From IMG/VR virus record IMGVR_UViG_2563366959_000001, positions 1-13,684 of that record: DNA of 13,684 nt; one strand, given 5' to 3'. Below are positions 454 to 7,521 of the stretch, piece by piece. Source of the stretch: a virus. Its lineage: Duplodnaviria; Heunggongvirae; Uroviricota; Caudoviricetes. Position 1 is the first letter of the stretch, and every line of letters begins with the position of its first letter. A program made the translations under genes and the position numbers. Below the pieces are notes generated by a model, which was given only the letters and a program-made list of their open reading frames with translations, had not been told where the DNA came from and did no database searches.

Positions 454-495
454 CCACACGATAACAACACAACAATATCAGTATCTCATGCTATT

Positions 496-520
496 GCCCG
501 AACCCATTCGGGCATTTTTT
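496..520 (+). terminator. Rho-independent terminator (GCCCGAA-CCCA-TTCGGGC followed by A + T6)
   Basis: 7-bp GC-rich stem, 4-nt loop, six T run at 515-520. Confidence 0.55.
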
Positions 521-521
521 A

Positions 522-553
522 CCCATAAAAAATGCCCCTCCGGAGAGGGGCAT
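522..553 (-). terminator. Rho-independent terminator for minus-strand transcripts (9-bp stem ATGCCCCTC/GAGGGGCAT, loop, then T6 on minus strand)
   Basis: Stem 532-540/545-553; plus-strand A-run 527-532 gives the U-tract on the minus strand; back-to-back with the 496-520 terminator. Confidence 0.55.
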
Positions 554-718
554 GTTTGCATGCACATTCTTTTTCTTGCATGGTGCCGGGTGCCTCCCGG
601 TGAATTCAGTATCAGCACCTGAATCCGCGATTATCACATATACCTGGTTGCTGATTGCCCCTCCGCACAGGGGGATTCACCATGCAGTAGTATTTTTAAT
701 AAACAGTAAACAAAAAAA

Positions 719-971: not shown

Positions 972-1730
972 TTAAATTCTGGTCCTTACAATATCAACCT
1001 GAAGATTCTTATCTTGTGCTGATTGATAAATCACAAACCTTTTACTACCTGCATTGAAAGAAGTAGACAAAACCAGACAATTATCATAACGAGCAAGAAC
1101 ATAATACCAACCATCATTATAATTAATCATTTCATATTCTTTCTTAAACTGTGGTTTGTAATATCCTGTCAGAAATGAAAAAAGCCAGAAATATGCCACA
1201 AAAGCAATCATCACAATCTCAAAAAAATGTTTTTTTATAAATGGCTTATCATAGAAGCATGATACCGATAAAAATCGCCCATAAGATCTTATCGAAATTG
1301 TAACCGCCAGCGCAATCGCTGCTGACAGTAGCAAAAGAGGTACCTGAATCTTCTGTCTCAATATAGAAAACTCAATAATTGCCGGCACAAACAATAATTC
1401 CACAGCAAAATAAAGGCGAAATACATTTAGCTCTTGCATAGAATGTTTTCTTTTCACTGCGAAAAAGAATACAACACCAATACCCCAACCGATAAGAAAT
1501 ATAGCAATGACGATAACTGCAAAAAATAAACTTCTGGCAACATCATCAACACCTGCACCTACAATCCACCATGGGAAGCCGTAGTAAAAAGAAGTACCCC
1601 ATCCATAGAAATAAGCACTCCCCCATCCAAGGCATCCCATGTAGGCAATAAAAAGTGAAGAACTCCTGAGCAGCGCACCATCCTTCATAACCACCCCAAT
1701 ACAAGATGATAACATTGGCTTACAACTCAT
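972..1730 (-). CDS. Polytopic membrane protein of unknown function (252 aa; aromatic-rich N-terminal segment, ~4-5 predicted TM helices, ~55-aa soluble C-terminal tail); AT-rich moron between Q/PR' and the late esterase gene
   Basis: Long ORF in an otherwise non-coding-looking, visibly AT-rich block; hydrophobic stretches LFFAVIVIAIFLIGWGIGVVFFFAV, FRLYFAVELLFVPAIIEFSIL, VPLLLLSAAIALAVTISI, FFEIVMIAFVAYFWLFSFLTGYY; candidate promoter TTGACG (1750-1755) - 17 nt - TTATGA overlapping the first ATG; true start may be Met6 (1715). Confidence 0.7.
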   Translation of the reverse strand: MSCKPMLSSCIGVVMKDGALLRSSSLFIAYMGCLGWGSAYFYGWGTSFYYGFPWWIVGAGVDDVARSLFFAVIVIAIFLIGWGIGVVFFFAVKRKHSMQELNVFRLYFAVELLFVPAIIEFSILRQKIQVPLLLLSAAIALAVTISIRSYGRFLSVSCFYDKPFIKKHFFEIVMIAFVAYFWLFSFLTGYYKPQFKKEYEMINYNDGWYYVLARYDNCLVLSTSFNAGSKRFVIYQSAQDKNLQVDIVRTRI

Positions 1731-1879
1731 AACAAAAGCAATTCAATGCCGTCAAGAGGTTACAGGCTAAAAAAACTCTATTACATTGCAGTCAGCATGT
1801 TTACTACACAAATACAATTCAGAGCATAAAAACTACTCGGCGGCAGGTTATTGAGACTCATCAATGACATGTAAAAAAC

Positions 1880-1925
1880 GCCCATTATTGGTGTCAAGTT
1901 TCCCCAAAGTTATTCAAAAAGTCAA
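1880..1925 (-). promoter_or_regulatory. PR'/qut-like late promoter region downstream of Q (minus strand TTGACT-TTTTGAATAACTTTGGGG-AAACTT-GACACCAATAATGGGCG)
   Basis: Position immediately after Q and close resemblance, from memory, to lambda PR' (TTGACT TATTGAATAAAATTGGG TAAATT TGACTCAACGAT); -10-like pause element AATAAT in the initial transcribed region. Confidence 0.5.
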
Positions 1926-1967
1926 TATTATGCCGTTAATATGTTGCCATCCGTGGCAATCATGGCG

Positions 1968-2591
1968 CTAACGTGTGATCGCATTCAAAATGTTGTCTGC
2001 GATTGACTCTTCCTTGTGGCATTGCACAACCAGAGCGTCATACAGCGGCTTAACAGTGCGTGACCAGGTGGGTTGGGTAAGGTTTGGGATTAGCATCGTC
2101 ACAGCGCGATATGCGGCGCTTGCTGGCATTCTTGAATAACCGACGCCTTTACATCTTCCGCACTCTTTCTCAGCAACTATCCCCCACTGCTCTGTTTTGG
2201 CTATATCAACCGCACGGCCTGTACCGTGGCAATCTCTGCATCTTGCGCCCGGCGTAGCGGCACTACGGCAATAATCCGCATAAGCGAATGTTGCGAGCAC
2301 TTGCAGTACCTTTGCCTTAGTATTTCCTTCAAGCTTTGCCACGCCACGGTATTTCCCCGATACCTTGTGTGCAAATTGCATCAGATAGTTGATAGCCTTT
2401 TGTTTGTCGTTCTGGCTTAGTTCATGCTTACCGCAGAATGCAGCCATTCCGAATCCGGCTTGTGATTGCGCCATCCCCATAGCAGCCATCACATCAGTAC
2501 CGGAAAGAGAGTCAGAAGCCGTGGCCCGTGGTGAGTCGCTCATCATCGGGCTTTTTGGCGAATGAAATTTAGCTACGCTTTCGAGTCTCAT
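1968..2591 (-). CDS. Q: Late-gene antitermination protein Q (lambda-type)
   Basis: 207-aa translation [44 protein letters not shown]... matches lambda Q as recalled, including Cys-rich zinc-binding region; ATGA-type overlap with upstream gene. Confidence 0.95.
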
Positions 2592-3253
2592 GCGCCTTCT
2601 CCCTGTACCTGAATCAATGTGAGGTTTCCGCAGAACACTGCGCCGGTATCTATATACATCTGGTTGGCAAACTTGAGTGGTTTCACTGCTGGCGTATGAC
2701 CAAAGATGAACGTGTCCGCGCCTTTGATTTCTTTCACGATCCCGTCTTGTGAGTTGCTGATTCGTTCGCGGTTCCAGATTACCTGCTGATGATCAACTGG
2801 CTTTCCAAACTCGTATTTATCACAAGGATAATCGGCGTGGCAGATGACATATTTTTTTCCTTTACTCACCAGTTCGATGATTAACGGAAGTTCATCTGCT
2901 TTATGGGCAAGAGCTTTAGCCAGAATTTCTTTGTCGTAATCGAGATTAAAGAACCAGCCACCGCCATTAAGCAGCCAGTGATTGACGTTTCCACGCTCTG
3001 ATAAGCCATCAATCATCATTTGCTCATGGTTTCCACGTACAGCTCTGAACCAGGGGAATGTGATTAATTCCAGGCATTCTACGTTCTCTGTACCGCGATC
3101 AACCAAATCGCCCACCGAGATAAGCAGGTCTTTTTTGGTGTCGAATCCTATCGTCTCCAGTTTTTTCATCAGGTTCGTGTAGCATCCGTGCAGATCGCCA
3201 ACTACCCAAATATTTCGGTATTTGCTGCCATCAATTCTTTCGTAGATATTCAT
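2588..3253 (-). CDS. ninI: Ser/Thr protein phosphatase (lambda phosphatase, NinI/orf221 family; calcineurin-like metallophosphoesterase)
   Basis: 221 aa; motifs GDLHG, GDLVDRG, GNHE characteristic of PPP-family phosphatases; stop overlaps Q start. Confidence 0.95.
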
Positions 3254-4651: not shown

Positions 4652-5356
4652 TCAGTAGCGATGTAGTGAAGGAGGTAATTCTTTGTTCTTAAGCCTTACC
4701 CATGCGGAAAGATTCGTTGGTCCGTCTGGCTCATTAATATCAACATCTCGTGTGTGATTGATTAAAACGTCTCTCGCCATTCCAATAACATACGAGAACT
4801 CATGACCGTAGTCGTAACATCTGCCGGAATAGTTCGATTGAATTTGCTTTAGCGCTGGATACAATTCGCGGAATAATGCCTGTGAGCGGTTAGCATAATC
4901 CCACAGCCATACAAGGCTGTCTGTTTCTTTTGCGGAAAGCCCGTTGAGCTTCTTCTCTTGTTTGCCAGTATTTTTCTCGCACTGGCTGAAATAGCAGTCT
5001 TCCAGTTTTTCGAACACTTCCCACGCCTGATCGGTTTCGAGCATTTTGGCGTGACGGGCTGCTCCGCGTTCTGTCCAGAGGATGAGGGAGCGGGCTTTCG
5101 GGGAAATTTGTAACCCTCTTAAAGATGGTTGCAAATTTTGTGAGTTACTTAAAGTAACCCGCAAAATTTTCAACTCATCACCAACAACCTTGAAAAAGTG
5201 TTTACCCTCAACAAAACGCTCGGAATTACGGGTGTAATTTACTTTGATGTTGTTGATCTCGGTACAGTAAAGCTGTGCCAGTAACTCGGTAGTGATAACG
5301 GGAATTTGGTTGTGTGTAATTGGGGAAAGAGTTTCGACAGAAATCTGAGTGGCCAT
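4652..5356 (-). CDS. ORF6N/KilA-N-family DNA-binding protein (phage regulatory protein)
   Basis: Conserved block ...[34 protein letters not shown] typical of ORF6N-domain proteins; start placed at [10 protein letters not shown] (ATG at 5354-5356) with GGAG 8 nt upstream rather than the longer track ORF. Confidence 0.7.
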
Positions 5357-5513
5357 AACGATAACTCCGTACATTTGGACATTATCGCCACCGTCAGGTG
5401 CTAATCATCATGGTGGCGAACTGTGCGGGGTTAGCACTACCGGGTACGGAAACCGGCGAGCCTTTCGGCTCCCCCACACAGCCCGCCATAAATCGCGAAT
5501 GTGACTGTGCAAA

Positions 5514-5548
5514 CGATATGAAAAAAGACGCGGGCGCGTCTCATATCG
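5514..5548 (-). terminator. Rho-independent terminator in the nin region (inner hairpin GACGCG-NN-CGCGTC followed by T6 on minus strand, nested in a longer inverted repeat CGATATGA...TCATATCG)
   Basis: Read directly; on minus strand GACGCGCCCGCGTC is followed by TTTTTTCATATCG. Confidence 0.5.
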
Positions 5549-5633
5549 CTCCGTAAACATCCGGGGTGCTAATCCCGACGCCAGATTTTGCTGGCGCGTG
5601 AGGAATATAGCCCCGAATAAATCATCGCGTCAA

Positions 5634-5816
5634 TCACCTTGTTTTCCTCGCACGATGTCTTAGCCACCGGATATCCCACAGATGAGCCGTGCAGTTGAAG
5701 GTTTTTACGTCAGATTCTTTTGGGATTGGCTTGCGTTTATTTCTGGAGCGTTTCGTTGGAAGGTATTTGCAGTTTTCGCAGATGATGTCGGTGATGCTTC
5801 GTCGCTGTCGCCTCAT
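5634..5816 (-). CDS. ninE: NinE family protein (60 aa)
   Basis: Translation [60 protein letters not shown]; ATG overlaps the methyltransferase stop (ATGA). Confidence 0.8.
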
Positions 5817-6340
5817 GCCGCCCTCCTGACGCCCTGCCCGATCGCCATCAATGCCGCTTTGGATACAGTAGTAAACATTCGTCGAGGACTGATGAACGGT
5901 CGCCAAATCAGCAGCATGGAGCCTTTGCTGTTTCCCTTCTTCTCCAGCCCTGTCGATGGTTCGATAAAATTAATCCGTCCATCAGTGATAATGCGAACTT
6001 CGTCAACACTCTCCAGAGCCTTGCTGAACCATCCGACTGACATATCCTCTGGCACAAGCATCACTACCGTCTGTCGCTGTTGTATGCACTGCTCAGCGGC
6101 TTTTTCCACCCACGGCCTGATATTGCTGTACGGTGGGTTATTCCAGATTGCACCGTGGCTTATCCACTCAGAATTTAGCGCGTCGTCGGCCTCAGTTAAC
6201 CAGTGAGCGCACAGAGCATTTTTGTCGCTCGCTGCCGAATCCAGCCAGAATCCAAACTCAATATCCAGTGCATCAAAAAGCCAAAGCGGCGTTTGCCAGC
6301 AGTCCTTGTCGTGTGATGGCGTATTTGATTTGATAGTCAT
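5813..6340 (-). CDS. Phage Dam-family DNA N6-adenine methyltransferase (orphan, no adjacent restriction enzyme)
   Basis: 175 aa from [25 protein letters not shown]...; NPPY catalytic motif (motif IV of amino-methyltransferases); occupies the ninC position; ATGA overlaps at both ends. Confidence 0.85.
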
Positions 6341-6939
6341 GCAGCCCGATCTCCCCATCGCGCTTTCATTTTTTCATTTGCAAATCGCCAGAATCTTCCT
6401 TTGTGATATGAGCTTTCGCCATTACAGCAACGACTAATTGACGAACTATCAAATCCTTCTCTGACAGCATCCATAGCTGCTTCATAATAAACCTCCTCCC
6501 CAGTTTTCATGTCAGTAGAAATAACAGCTTTACTGGCAGGATGGTCACCACTAAATTTACCTAGCGATATAGGTATTCTTCCATTTTGTTTATATCCGTG
6601 TTTTGAGTTTTCAGAATGTGATACCCATTCAAGGTTATCAGCCCTATTGTCATCTCTTCGCCCATTTTTGTGATTAACTACCAAGCCATCACAGAACCCT
6701 GTACAGAATGCTTTCGCAACTATCCTGTGGGCGCTGTATTTCTTACCGTATACCTTTATTTGAAGATATCCTGTCGACTTGCACTTGAATGGTTTTACAC
6801 TAGTGCCATTAATTATTTTCTTATATGGCCTCTGTCTGGTTGATGTTACTGTAACTTCCCTCGTAATAGACCTGAAATTTCCTTTATTGCTAACCTGATA
6901 AAATGGAATCCCTTCGATATCTACCCAAACCTCAATCAT
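6337..6939 (-). CDS. HNH homing endonuclease (NUMOD4-like N-terminus + HNH nuclease motif)
   Basis: N-terminus MIEVWVDIEGIPFYQVSNKGNFRS (NUMOD4-like), HNH core VVNHKNGRRDDNRADNLEWVSHSEN; GGAGG 4 nt upstream of ATG; AT-rich; C-terminal 9 residues KARWGDRAA look like a NinB C-terminus. Confidence 0.85.
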   Translation of the reverse strand: MIEVWVDIEGIPFYQVSNKGNFRSITREVTVTSTRQRPYKKIINGTSVKPFKCKSTGYLQIKVYGKKYSAHRIVAKAFCTGFCDGLVVNHKNGRRDDNRADNLEWVSHSENSKHGYKQNGRIPISLGKFSGDHPASKAVISTDMKTGEEVYYEAAMDAVREGFDSSSISRCCNGESSYHKGRFWRFANEKMKARWGDRAA

Positions 6940-7348
6940 AATTCCTCCATTCGCTAAGATGAATTGAGTTCATGGCACAATATGCTTCTATGTAGTCCAT
7001 TATTTCGGATATTTTTTTTACAGATAGAGTCGCCGTACTCTCTCTGATGTTTATTAGCTCACCTTCTAACCCTGATATAATCTCAGGGTGCTGGTTGGTT
7101 GCAATCTGCCAACCAGAAACGAATAACCCCTTCCAAAACTCAATATTTCTTGCTTTTCCGTGATATGTAGCCTTCTTACTTATTTCAGATAGCATCGCGT
7201 GAAGGCGTGCATTTTGCCGAATGCTGCGGTTGCGTTCCTGAATGGTTACTACGATTGGTTTGGTTGGGTCTGGAAGAATTTGCTGGATAGCTTGAATGGC
7301 GTTCTGCTGATGGATGGGGCTTCTTAGTTCAAATGTTAGTTTCCTCAT
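6932..7348 (-). CDS. ninB: NinB (Orf-family recombination mediator) homologue; lambda-like N-terminal third, divergent AT-rich remainder
   Basis: From MRKLTFELRSPIHQQNAIQAIQQILPDPTKPIVVTIQERNRS (near-identical to lambda NinB N-terminus as recalled), 138 aa; start chosen at internal ATG (7346-7348) matching the family N-terminus. Confidence 0.85.
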   Translation of the reverse strand: MRKLTFELRSPIHQQNAIQAIQQILPDPTKPIVVTIQERNRSIRQNARLHAMLSEISKKATYHGKARNIEFWKGLFVSGWQIATNQHPEIISGLEGELINIRESTATLSVKKISEIMDYIEAYCAMNSIHLSEWRNYD

Positions 7349-7511
7349 CACCCTTAATCCTCTCGAAGTTCTTCTCGAAGTTTTTGGTGTCGAACACTGA
7401 CCACCGACCATTATGAATGGCGTATGCACATGTCTTGTTTTCGTCCTGATAAACCACCCTTACCTTGCGATAAAACCGTGGCTTAATCTCTCTGAATATT
7501 TGCTCGCTCAT
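7329..7511 (-). CDS. Hypothetical small protein (60 aa)
   Basis: ATG at 7509-7511 with strong SD AAGGAG 5 nt upstream; MSEQIFREIKPRFYRKVRVVYQDENKTCAYAIHNGRW...; 3' end overlaps ninB start out of frame. Confidence 0.55.
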   Translation of the reverse strand: MSEQIFREIKPRFYRKVRVVYQDENKTCAYAIHNGRWSVFDTKNFEKNFERIKGDEETNI

Positions 7512-7521
7512 GCTCACTCCT

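What the first reader, a model, noticed from the sequence alone, without database searches (positions are those of the whole stretch)
6337..7348. HNH homing endonuclease inserted at the ninB 3' end, capturing the NinB C-terminus and apparently co-converting the 3' two-thirds of ninB
The NinB homologue is lambda-like for its first ~45 residues, then becomes divergent and AT-rich and ends early (…SEWRNYD). The HNH endonuclease gene starts 8 nt before that stop (GGAGG SD embedded in ninB). It is AT-rich throughout except for its last nine codons, KARWGDRAA, which I recall as the C-terminal end of NinB, followed by the conserved ATGA junction into the next gene. This is the signature of a freestanding homing endonuclease inserted into a coding gene, with the flanking sequence transferred along with it.
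Basis: partly seen in the sequence, partly recalled or inferred. Interest (0 to 1): 0.5.

Follow-up and report, generated by a model that had tools for sequence, protein, structure and literature searches.

The report
Homing-endonuclease cassette replacing most of ninB
A selfish-looking HNH endonuclease gene sits in the recombination gene ninB of a Shiga-toxin prophage; it arrived with a foreign copy of the last two-thirds of ninB, and the endonuclease now reads into the leftover end of the old gene.

Summary
All genes are on the minus strand.

- **Anatomy.** ninB codons 1-42 (7348-7223) match the HNH-less Sf6 allele at 96%. An 855-bp AT-rich block follows (7222-6368, 39% GC against 46-51% in the flanks). 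It encodes a complete alternative NinB C-terminal domain and a 200-aa I-HmuI-type HNH endonuclease. The last 31 nt (6367-6337) are identical to the 3' end of HNH-less lambda-type ninB. They give the endonuclease the tail KARWGDRAA and the original ATGA junction into dam.
- **Distribution.** About 180 phage records have an empty ninB-dam site. Only 77 of 5,426 complete E. coli genomes carry the cassette.
- **Mobility signature.** The core is at least 98.5% identical across at least 11 flank combinations, while the tail is much more polymorphic.
- **Wider lineage.** HNH relatives down to about 39% identity nearly always follow a NinB-family gene. Many carry other NinB-like tails.
- **Correction.** NinB here is not truncated. 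It has the natural length of a widespread NinB subtype.
- **Limits.** Cleavage and homing are inferred, not shown.

This is a new member of a known kind, the free-standing homing endonuclease with co-conversion. Interest is moderate.

The parts
7223..7348 (-). Resident 5' part of ninB, codons 1-42 (MRKLTFELRSPIHQQNAIQAIQQILPDPTKPIVVTIQERNRS). It is the left homology arm and ends in the RNRS-coding block.
   Evidence: It is 96% identical to the HNH-less ninB of phage Sf6, and the match ends at 7223. In 1,318 E. coli genomes the match to this part likewise stops at query position 126, which is 7223.
6368..7222 (-). Foreign 855-bp core of the cassette: the ninB 3' part followed by the native part of the HNH gene.
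   Evidence: GC is 39.1% against 46-51% in the flanks. The block is at least 98.5% identical in 23 loci (the window plus 22 others) that together show at least 11 flank combinations. It is absent from about 180 phage records that have a ninB-dam junction.
6932..7222 (-). Foreign ninB 3' part, codons 43-138 plus the stop. It encodes a 'type-a' NinB C-terminal domain (LFVSGWQIAT...GLEGELINIRES...).
   Evidence: It is only weakly similar to lambda NinB: 45% overall, with most of the identity in codons 1-42. The same subtype is widespread without any HNH gene and ends at the same length. dN/dS against SEN22 is 0.036.
6944..6948 (-). GGAGG ribosome-binding site of the HNH gene, lying inside the ninB coding sequence 4 nt upstream of the ATG.
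   Evidence: Read directly from the sequence.
6337..6939 (-). HNH endonuclease ORF of 200 aa plus stop, I-HmuI type. The motif residues are N89, H90, N102 and N111.
   Evidence: Pfam finds NUMOD4, HNH_3 and an I-HmuI NUMOD-like domain. phmmer against I-HmuI (1U3E) gives E=3.7e-14 over residues 55-186. The AlphaFold model has pLDDT 91.9, and its only significant PDB match is 1U3E at E=5e-12. H90, N102 and N111 are invariant in 36 homologues.
6337..6367 (-). Remnant of the displaced lambda-type ninB 3' end, read in frame by the HNH ORF as KARWGDRAA plus the stop.
   Evidence: All 31 nt are identical to the HNH-less mEp332 ninB end, and the nine residues equal the lambda NinB C-terminus. Mean pLDDT over residues 191-200 falls to 66. 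The remnant is far more polymorphic than the core, with up to 5 differences in 31 nt.
6337..6340 (-). ATGA stop/start overlap between the HNH gene (formerly ninB) and dam.
   Evidence: The same junction occurs in HNH-less phages between ninB and dam, and in lambda between ninB and ninC. In cassette-bearing loci the same overlap joins the HNH gene to ninC-like, ninD or ninE genes.
5813..6340 (-). dam, a phage N6-adenine methyltransferase. It is the resident downstream gene and the right flank.
   Evidence: Pfam Dam, E=7e-65. It is 97-99% identical in HNH-less phages.

Best explanation
A free-standing HNH homing-endonuclease gene of the I-HmuI type entered a lambda/Sf6-type ninB gene as part of an 855-bp cassette. 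The cassette also carries the 3' two-thirds of a different ('type-a') ninB gene, which is the endonuclease's home neighbour.

**What the comparisons show.**
- The cassette replaced resident ninB codons 43-137.
- The left joint lies in the conserved RNRS-coding block at 7223. The right joint lies 28-31 nt before the old ninB stop.
- ninB is therefore a chimera that still encodes a complete NinB domain.
- The HNH ORF has no stop codon of its own. It reads in frame through the leftover ninB end to the old stop, and so keeps the ATGA overlap with dam.

**What is inferred.**
- In a cell that holds both an HNH-plus and an HNH-less lambdoid genome, the enzyme nicks or cuts the lambda-type ninB allele somewhere in the stretch that its own allele has replaced or disrupted.
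- Repair from the HNH-plus genome copies the cassette. The conserved ninB 5' block serves as the left homology arm. The ninB remnant, plus the downstream gene where it is shared, serves as the right arm.
- The whole heterologous ninB 3' part is co-converted, because the nearest left homology lies upstream of codon 43.
For: - **Empty sites and breakpoints.** They are defined.
- **Homology to a proven homing endonuclease.** Sequence and fold both match I-HmuI, and the motif residues are conserved.
- **Purifying selection on the HNH gene.** dN is 0.14 against SEN22 while synonymous sites are saturated.
- **Sporadic distribution.** The cassette is in 62 of about 245 dam-context phage records. Among E. 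coli genomes, 77 of the 1,318 with a matching ninB carry it.
- **Linkage.** All 65 phage records with the foreign ninB part also hold the HNH gene.
- **Spread across contexts.** The nearly identical core sits behind 4 ninB 5' alleles, 9 upstream contexts and 8 downstream contexts: dam, ninC-like and ninE, plus ninD in an E. coli genome. In APC_JM3.2 the homology stops exactly at the ATGA.
- **Separate history of the tail.** The tail is much more polymorphic than the core, and its 3' half tracks the downstream gene.
- **Decayed copies, as in a homing-endonuclease life cycle.** These include frameshifted proteins, an IS5-disrupted copy and a truncated copy in Mixta.
- **Lineage-wide association.** Of the 54 viral loci whose HNH relative is at least 39% identical, 47 have a NinB-family ORF ending at the HNH start. 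Of 44 long HNH tails, 19 resemble NinB C-termini better than every one of 40 shuffles.
- **Precedent.** Co-conversion from cleavage sites far from the endonuclease gene is established for free-standing phage endonucleases (PMC2988022).
Against: - No cleavage, nicking or biased inheritance has been measured for this protein, and the target site is unknown.
- Lambdoid phages exchange modules at gene boundaries anyway, so several contexts for one block do not by themselves prove homing.
- The right homology arm would be only 31 nt when the downstream gene differs.
- The first metal ligand of I-HmuI (D74) is Asn here. Both N and D occur in the family.
- A polymorphism 8 nt into the tail is hard to explain by crossovers inside the tail. 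It may reflect later patch conversion or mutation.
Confidence: 0.75

Rival explanations
1. This is ordinary lambdoid mosaicism. The ninB 3' part plus HNH block is one more module shuffled by general or Red-type recombination at short conserved boundary sequences. The HNH protein plays no part in its own spread; it is inert, or it does something else.
For: - Type-a NinB is a natural, widespread lineage that mostly lacks the HNH gene.
- The junction motif GC(N)GCATGA is shared by many nin genes: dam ends ...RRAA and ninC ends ...REAA. The Sf6 record annotates 'boundary sequences' in this region.
- Downstream contexts vary in just the same way in HNH-less phages.
Against: - The right joint is not at a gene boundary. 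It lies inside lambda-type ninB and leaves a remnant.
- The block is at least 98.5% identical across flanks that are unrelated or only 67-83% identical.
- The HNH ORF is intact, under purifying selection, and a full-length I-HmuI relative.
- Remnant capture recurs with other NinB subtypes across the HNH lineage.
Confidence: 0.15
2. The HNH protein is a functional partner of NinB/Orf, a nuclease working with the recombination mediator. It would be kept next to ninB for function, like the Orf-HNH fusion proteins (DUF968) of Gram-positive phages.
For: - The HNH gene is persistently adjacent to Orf-family genes of several divergent subtypes, including a sub-threshold NinB/YbcN-like gene in Klebsiella.
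- Orf domains fused to an HNH motif are described in PMC4118853.
Against: - Most ninB genes lack it: 75 of 77 type-a loci in species-representative genomes, and about 94% of E. coli genomes with a matching ninB.
- Some relatives sit behind DUF1367 or unrelated genes.
- The NUMOD-type DNA-binding modules and the I-HmuI architecture are those of site-specific homing enzymes.
- Decayed copies occur.
Confidence: 0.07

Closest known systems
I-HmuI (and I-HmuII, I-BasI): HNH nicking homing endonucleases of Bacillus phages SPO1, SP82 and Bastille; structure 1U3E
   Same: It is a direct homologue by sequence (E=3.7e-14) and by fold over the whole length (E=5e-12, 190 aligned columns). The architecture is the same: an N-terminal beta domain, the HNH motif and a C-terminal helical DNA-binding part. 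The equivalents of H75, N87 and N96 are conserved.
   Different: I-HmuI is encoded inside a group I intron of the DNA polymerase gene. Here there is no intron: Rfam finds none and the ORFs overlap with no spare sequence. The D74 equivalent is Asn. This protein also carries a 9-10 residue tail derived from another gene.
Free-standing homing endonucleases of T-even phages (SegF, SegG, SegB, MobE): 'intronless homing' with marker exclusion
   Same: The endonuclease gene lies between or within host genes, without an intron or intein. Its distribution among related phages is sporadic. Flanking sequence is transferred with the gene, and the cleavage site may lie hundreds of base pairs from the gene (PMC2988022; PMC2790892).
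   Different: Those enzymes were shown experimentally to cut and to be over-inherited, whereas here that is inferred. They occur in virulent T4-like phages, and this one is in temperate lambdoid (Stx) prophages. Here the co-transferred flank is a non-homologous allele of the target gene, and the endonuclease ORF is fused to the displaced gene end.
Mobile endonuclease ORFs that bring a replacement 3' end of the invaded gene: Allomyces mitochondrial atp6 with a GIY-YIG ORF (Paquin, Laforest and Lang 1994), and LAGLIDADG genes in fungal rps3 (Sethuraman et al. 2009). Both are recalled from memory, not retrieved here.
   Same: The element carries a foreign copy of the C-terminal coding part of the target gene, so the gene stays intact. 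The resident 3' end is displaced downstream as a remnant.
   Different: Those cases are in eukaryotic organelles and involve other endonuclease families. There the endonuclease is usually fused to the upstream gene. Here it is a separate, overlapping ORF that reads into the downstream remnant.
MobE insertion that splits nrdA in Aeromonas phage Aeh1 (Friedrich et al. 2007; recalled from memory, alluded to in PMC2988022)
   Same: An HNH free-standing endonuclease gene lies inside a phage coding gene, and the gene's function is preserved.
   Different: In that case the target gene is split into two expressed pieces. Here the 3' part is replaced by a foreign allele, and only 9 codons of the old gene survive.

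Membership tests
HNH homing endonucleases of the I-HmuI type | HNH (beta-beta-alpha-metal) motif with the catalytic His and the conserved Asn residues | tested here: met
   Pfam HNH_3 scores E=2.4e-11. The alignment to 1U3E places N89, H90, N102 and N111 opposite D74, H75, N87 and N96. H90, N102 and N111 are invariant in 36 homologues. The D74 equivalent is Asn.
HNH homing endonucleases of the I-HmuI type | Extended three-part architecture with NUMOD-type DNA-binding modules | tested here: met
   NUMOD4 scores E=1.4e-13 and the I-HmuI NUMOD-like domain scores E=9e-4, which is below Pfam's cutoff. The model has pLDDT 91.9 and its only significant PDB match is 1U3E (prob 1.0, TM 0.56/0.63).
HNH homing endonucleases of the I-HmuI type | Encoded within a self-splicing group I intron | tested here: not met
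   No Rfam intron family is found in the window. The ORF overlaps ninB by 8 nt and dam by 4 nt, so there is no non-coding sequence. It is therefore free-standing.
Homing endonuclease genes in general | Site-specific cleavage or nicking of the allele that lacks the gene, with immunity of the allele that carries it | not testable with these tools
   This needs purified protein and HNH-less ninB substrates. The sequences show only that the carrier allele differs from empty alleles over 7222-6368.
Homing endonuclease genes in general | Sporadic presence at one homologous site among related genomes, with empty sites | tested here: met
   There are 62 HNH-plus and about 180 HNH-less phage records with the dam junction. 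Among 1,318 E. coli genomes with a matching ninB, 77 carry the cassette.
Homing endonuclease genes in general | Over-transmission in crosses (super-Mendelian inheritance) | not testable with these tools
   This requires mixed infections with wild-type and catalytic-mutant phages.
Free-standing endonucleases with co-conversion ('intronless homing') | Flanking host sequence is transferred together with the endonuclease gene | tested here: met
   The foreign ninB 3' part is found with the HNH gene in all 65 phage records that hold it. The 855-bp core is at least 98.5% identical behind four different ninB 5' alleles. This shows co-transfer. It does not show that a double-strand break drove it.
NinB/Orf recombination mediators (PF05772), for the chimeric ninB | Full-length NinB domain with the conserved cavity residues (lambda R41, Q45, N46, W/H50) | tested here: met
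   Pfam NinB scores E=2.5e-40 over profile positions 2-129 of 131. The sequence ...ERNRSIRQNARLHAM keeps R41, Q45, N46 and H50. The residues are those named in PMC4118853. Function of the chimera was not tested.

The most novel reading that the evidence does not exclude
This NUMOD4-HNH lineage may be a specialist parasite of the Orf/NinB recombination-mediator locus of proteobacterial temperate phages. On this reading it moves as a unit with a replacement copy of part of its target gene, which acts as a portable immune allele. It repeatedly ends up reading in frame into the displaced gene end. That would preserve the stop/start coupling to whatever gene follows, and would keep a short universal right-hand homology arm. 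ninB would then be a hotspot invaded from both ends. One viral contig (L034) has a second, AP2-type HNH gene fused to the displaced ninB 5' end, so that no original ninB sequence remains except the RNRS codons. The RNRS-coding block could be the shared target.
Probability: 0.3. Interest if true: 0.6.

Novelty: new member of a known kind. Interest (0 to 1): 0.45.

Why it matters
Free-standing homing endonucleases have been studied almost only in virulent T4-like and SPO1-like phages. This is a clean, datable example in temperate lambdoid phages, including the Stx2a prophages of E. coli O157:H7.

- **Mosaicism.** It points to a selfish nuclease, rather than random recombination alone, as the likely cause of one sharp mosaic boundary inside ninB.
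- **A testable system.** HNH-plus and HNH-less alleles are available in lambda-like phages that are easy to cross.
- **Remnant capture.** It shows that capture of the displaced gene end recurs across the endonuclease lineage. That gives a sequence signature for finding similar events elsewhere.
- **Annotation.** The 138-aa NinB is a chimera, not a truncated protein. The last nine residues of the 'NUMOD4 domain-containing protein' belong historically to NinB.

Tried and rejected
- **RNA hairpin at the HNH ribosome-binding site.** T4 mobE is regulated this way. Folding 6900-6990 gave -13.3 kcal/mol, z = +1.3, no better than shuffles.
- **Own promoter or terminator in the cassette.** There are no minus-strand promoter-like sites in 5700-9300, and the total count is no higher than in shuffles.
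- **Group I intron or another structured RNA around the HNH gene.** None was found.
- **Truncation of NinB by the insertion.** Rejected, because HNH-less type-a NinB proteins end at the same length.
- **'AA*' endings of HNH homologues as proof of a ninB remnant.** Rejected as a criterion, because dam, ninC and other nin genes also end in ...RAA plus ATGA. Only the longer tails were tested, against shuffles.
- **Microhomology at the right joint (AATGG).** A crossover there would shift the frame and does not reproduce the observed sequence. The origin of the joint stays unresolved.
- **Literature.** Searches for a prior description (ninB plus homing endonuclease; HNH plus nin region plus Stx) found none. 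PMC4118853 marks HNH genes in nin-region maps and describes Orf-HNH fusions. A search for the mitochondrial analogue returned nothing usable.
- **dN/dS for the HNH gene.** It could not be computed because synonymous sites are saturated. Only dN is reported.
Full report
**What is there**

All genes in this part of the window are on the minus strand.
- ninB runs 7348-6932. It encodes 138 aa and gives a full-length Pfam NinB hit (E=2.5e-40).
- An HNH endonuclease ORF runs 6939-6337. It encodes 200 aa with NUMOD4, HNH_3 and an I-HmuI NUMOD-like domain.
- dam runs 6340-5813 (Pfam Dam, E=7e-65).

The HNH ATG overlaps the ninB stop in an 8-nt overlap and is preceded by GGAGG at 6948-6944. The HNH TGA overlaps the dam ATG as ATGA at 6340-6337.

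The window is 100% identical over this stretch to the chromosome of E. coli O157:H7 strain TR01. It is 99% identical to many Stx2a- and Stx1a-converting phages.

**Check of the observation**

Lambda NinB, read from J02459, ends ...[14 protein letters not shown]. The HNH protein ends ...[15 protein letters not shown].

At the DNA level, the last 31 nt of the HNH ORF (6367-6337) are identical to the end of ninB in the HNH-less phage mEp332. Identity continues into dam.

The first 42 codons of ninB are lambda-like. Their closest match is the HNH-less ninB of phage Sf6, at 96% DNA identity, and that match ends at 7223. Lambda-type alleles match the same stretch at about 85% and also stop at 7223.

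Between the two joints lie 855 bp (7222-6368). Their GC content is 39.1%, against 46% for the ninB 5' part and 51% for dam.

**The HNH gene is optional and the site is often empty**

A query spanning the HNH 3' end and the dam 5' end found 245 phage records.
- 62 carry the HNH gene.
- In about 180 the match begins only at window 6370-6346, because ninB is joined directly to dam.

Among 5,426 complete E. coli genomes, 1,318 have a ninB matching the 5' 126 nt. Only 77 carry the whole ninB-HNH stretch. In the listed rows without the cassette, the match stops at query position 126, which is window 7223.

**The tail is not native to the endonuclease**

In an alignment of 36 homologues, conservation ends at W184-R185-F186. 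After that the sequences differ in length (0 to about 35 residues) and in content.

I-HmuI, the solved relative, ends four residues after the equivalent motif. In the AlphaFold model (mean pLDDT 91.9), the last ten residues drop to a mean pLDDT of 66.

The Salmonella phage SEN22 copy is 77% identical in protein. It ends ...FADERMAA*, without KARWGDR.

**The divergent ninB part travels with the endonuclease**

All 65 phage records that contain the divergent ninB 3' part also contain the HNH gene.

Phage APC_JM3.2 is P22-like and otherwise unrelated. It shares about 100% identity with the window from about 7265 to 6337. The first roughly 28 ninB codons are only 67-83% identical. Nothing matches beyond the ATGA, where a ninC-like gene follows instead of dam.

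I compared 22 loci and the window.
- The 855-bp core is at least 98.5% identical, with at most 13 differences.
- It lies behind four ninB 5' alleles, nine upstream contexts and eight downstream contexts. The downstream genes are dam, ninC-like and ninE, plus ninD in an E. coli genome.
- The 31-nt tail shows up to 5 differences, and its 3' half tracks the downstream gene.

The tail therefore shares the history of the flank, not of the core. That is what is expected if it is resident DNA and serves as the right-hand edge of homology.

**A correction: NinB is chimeric, not truncated**

The foreign C-terminal part belongs to a distinct NinB subtype with the motif LF(V/I)SG..IAT....GLEGE..N(I/L)RES. 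This subtype is common in prophages of many Proteobacteria.

In species-representative genomes, 75 of 77 such loci have no HNH gene downstream. Their proteins end at about the same length as the window's NinB.

The window's ninB is thus a chimera of an Sf6-type N-terminus and a complete type-a C-terminal domain. It keeps the cavity residues R41, Q45, N46 and H50, which PMC4118853 names as important. The lambda-specific C-terminal helix is the piece left behind, and it is now attached to the endonuclease.

**What the endonuclease is**

- phmmer finds only I-HmuI (1U3E) in the PDB, at E=3.7e-14 over residues 55-186.
- The structural model matches only 1U3E significantly (E=5e-12, 190 aligned columns).
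- H90, N102 and N111 align with I-HmuI H75, N87 and N96 and are invariant in the family. The D74 equivalent is Asn.
- Against the SEN22 copy, dN is 0.14 while synonymous sites are saturated. For the ninB 3' part, dN/dS is 0.036. Both have been kept as working proteins.
- Decayed copies also exist: frameshifted proteins, an IS5-disrupted copy (L036) and a truncated one in Mixta.
- There is no intron, no RNA hairpin at the ribosome-binding site, and no promoter of its own. Expression presumably rides on nin-region transcription and on the GGAGG site inside ninB.

**The wider lineage**

I scanned viral contigs with the HNH alignment.
- Of the 54 loci whose HNH relative is at least 39% identical, 47 have a NinB-family ORF ending at the HNH start.
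- Relatives below about 38% identity almost never do.

The neighbouring NinB genes belong to several subtypes: type-a, lambda-like, a Pseudomonas-like type, and a sub-threshold NinB/YbcN-like type in Klebsiella. A few relatives follow a DUF1367 gene or an unrelated gene.

Many of these proteins carry other NinB-like tails, for example ...AFGTQRGVEWSPTSLGRAA...FGTEHGVKWADEAKAA and ...ASRLEIEWATRWGKS. Of 44 tails of 12 or more residues, 19 align to a set of 127 NinB C-termini better than all 40 shuffles of themselves, where about one would be expected by chance.

In L010, NinB ends ...YAFGAEHDVKWGEAT* and the HNH protein ends ...FGTEHGVKWADEAKAA*. There the ninB end is present on both sides of the endonuclease gene.

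Capture of the displaced ninB end is thus a recurrent feature of the lineage, not a peculiarity of this window.

**Most likely mechanism**

The comparisons show replacement of resident ninB codons 43-137 by a foreign ninB 3' part plus the HNH gene. They also show an in-frame read-through into the 9-codon remnant, and preservation of the ATGA overlap.

The rest is inferred. The enzyme would nick or cut HNH-less lambda-type ninB in a co-resident phage or prophage. Recombinational repair would then copy the cassette, using the conserved ninB 5' block and the remnant (plus any shared downstream gene) as homology arms. The whole heterologous ninB 3' part would be carried along, because the nearest left homology lies upstream of codon 43.

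This matches 'intronless homing' of free-standing T4 endonucleases. There, cleavage sites can lie hundreds of base pairs from the gene and flanking markers are co-converted (PMC2988022). I put this at 0.75.

The rivals are ordinary module shuffling with a bystander HNH gene (0.15) and a functional NinB-HNH partnership like the Orf-HNH fusions of Gram-positive phages (0.07; PMC4118853).

**Novelty and verdict**

The gene is annotated in public records as 'HNH endonuclease' or 'NUMOD4 domain-containing protein'. I found no paper describing the chimeric ninB, the captured tail or the lineage-wide association. The held library is incomplete, so this is not proof of absence.

Conceptually it is a new member of a known kind: a free-standing homing endonuclease with co-conversion. 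Its anatomy resembles mitochondrial endonuclease ORFs that bring a replacement gene end; I recall those cases from memory and did not retrieve them. Interest is moderate (0.45). It is a tidy, experimentally accessible case in medically relevant prophages, not a new principle.

Noticed in passing
window 8193-8804 (ORF, minus strand); insert about 8197-8854; hairpin 8167-8194: The window holds a second AT-rich endonuclease gene (HNH_3 plus AP2 domain, 203 aa). It lies in a 658-bp insert between ren and the tR2/ninA-like terminator hairpin. The insert is absent from Stx2a_WGPS9, from the other two-piece matches listed, and from most records in the search. An 8-bp overlap marks the empty-site junction. 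Only 3 phage records carry it, and PA28 annotates it as a homing endonuclease.
   Followed up: partly
L034 (IMGVR_UViG_2751185961_000005), about 1410-3103: Here ninB is invaded from both ends. Resident ninB codons 1-33 are fused in frame to an AP2-type HNH endonuclease ORF. An unrelated new ninB 5' part follows, joined at the RNRS codons (about 15 nt of identity) to the same 855-bp core, NUMOD4-HNH gene and lambda-type tail as in the window. This is a mirror image of the window's architecture. It hints that the RNRS-coding block is a recurrent joint or a target.
   Followed up: partly
L037, L039-L041, L049 (viral contigs); L011, L053 (Pseudomonas-type): Some HNH relatives follow a DUF1367 gene instead of ninB. 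In L039 a 933W-type ninB 5' remnant (MKQTYLLRNEAIRNNA...) lies just upstream of that gene. In L053 the upstream gene is an unrelated coiled-coil ORF, yet the HNH tail (AERGVVWSDRARQEIVDDWESA) is still NinB-like.
   Followed up: partly
L036 1371-2351: One copy of the same HNH gene is interrupted after about codon 46 by an insertion encoding a 326-aa protein that I recognise as the IS5 transposase. Frameshifted (P0004, P0005, P0007) and truncated (P0057; Mixta L096) copies also exist. These fit the decay phase of a homing-endonuclease cycle.
   Followed up: partly
window 5813-6340 and related loci L003, L014: Several nin-region genes end in ...RAA or ...EAA with the same GC(N)GCATGA stop/start overlap: dam ends ...VRRAA, ninC ...GREAA, and the L014 downstream gene ...GRAA. 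This short shared junction could act as a boundary sequence for module exchange. The Sf6 record annotates such 'bsq' features.
   Followed up: no
window 459-711 and 5409-5610: Rfam finds the sRNAs AgvB (459-520, plus strand) and STnc100 (521-711, minus strand). It also finds C4 antisense RNA (5409-5493), isrK (5521-5597) and c4-a1b1 (5558-5610), all on the minus strand. These last three lie next to a 240-aa ORF at 4652-5374, whose counterpart in phi419 is annotated as an anti-repressor.
   Followed up: no
L006 (phage 933W) 1065-1511: 933W-type ninB has a different 5' part and ends ...QRKGRAA. It precedes the same dam gene but shares only about 10 nt before the ATGA with the window. Every 933W-type record listed is HNH-less. 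That fits a need for lambda-type left homology or a lambda-type target.
   Followed up: no
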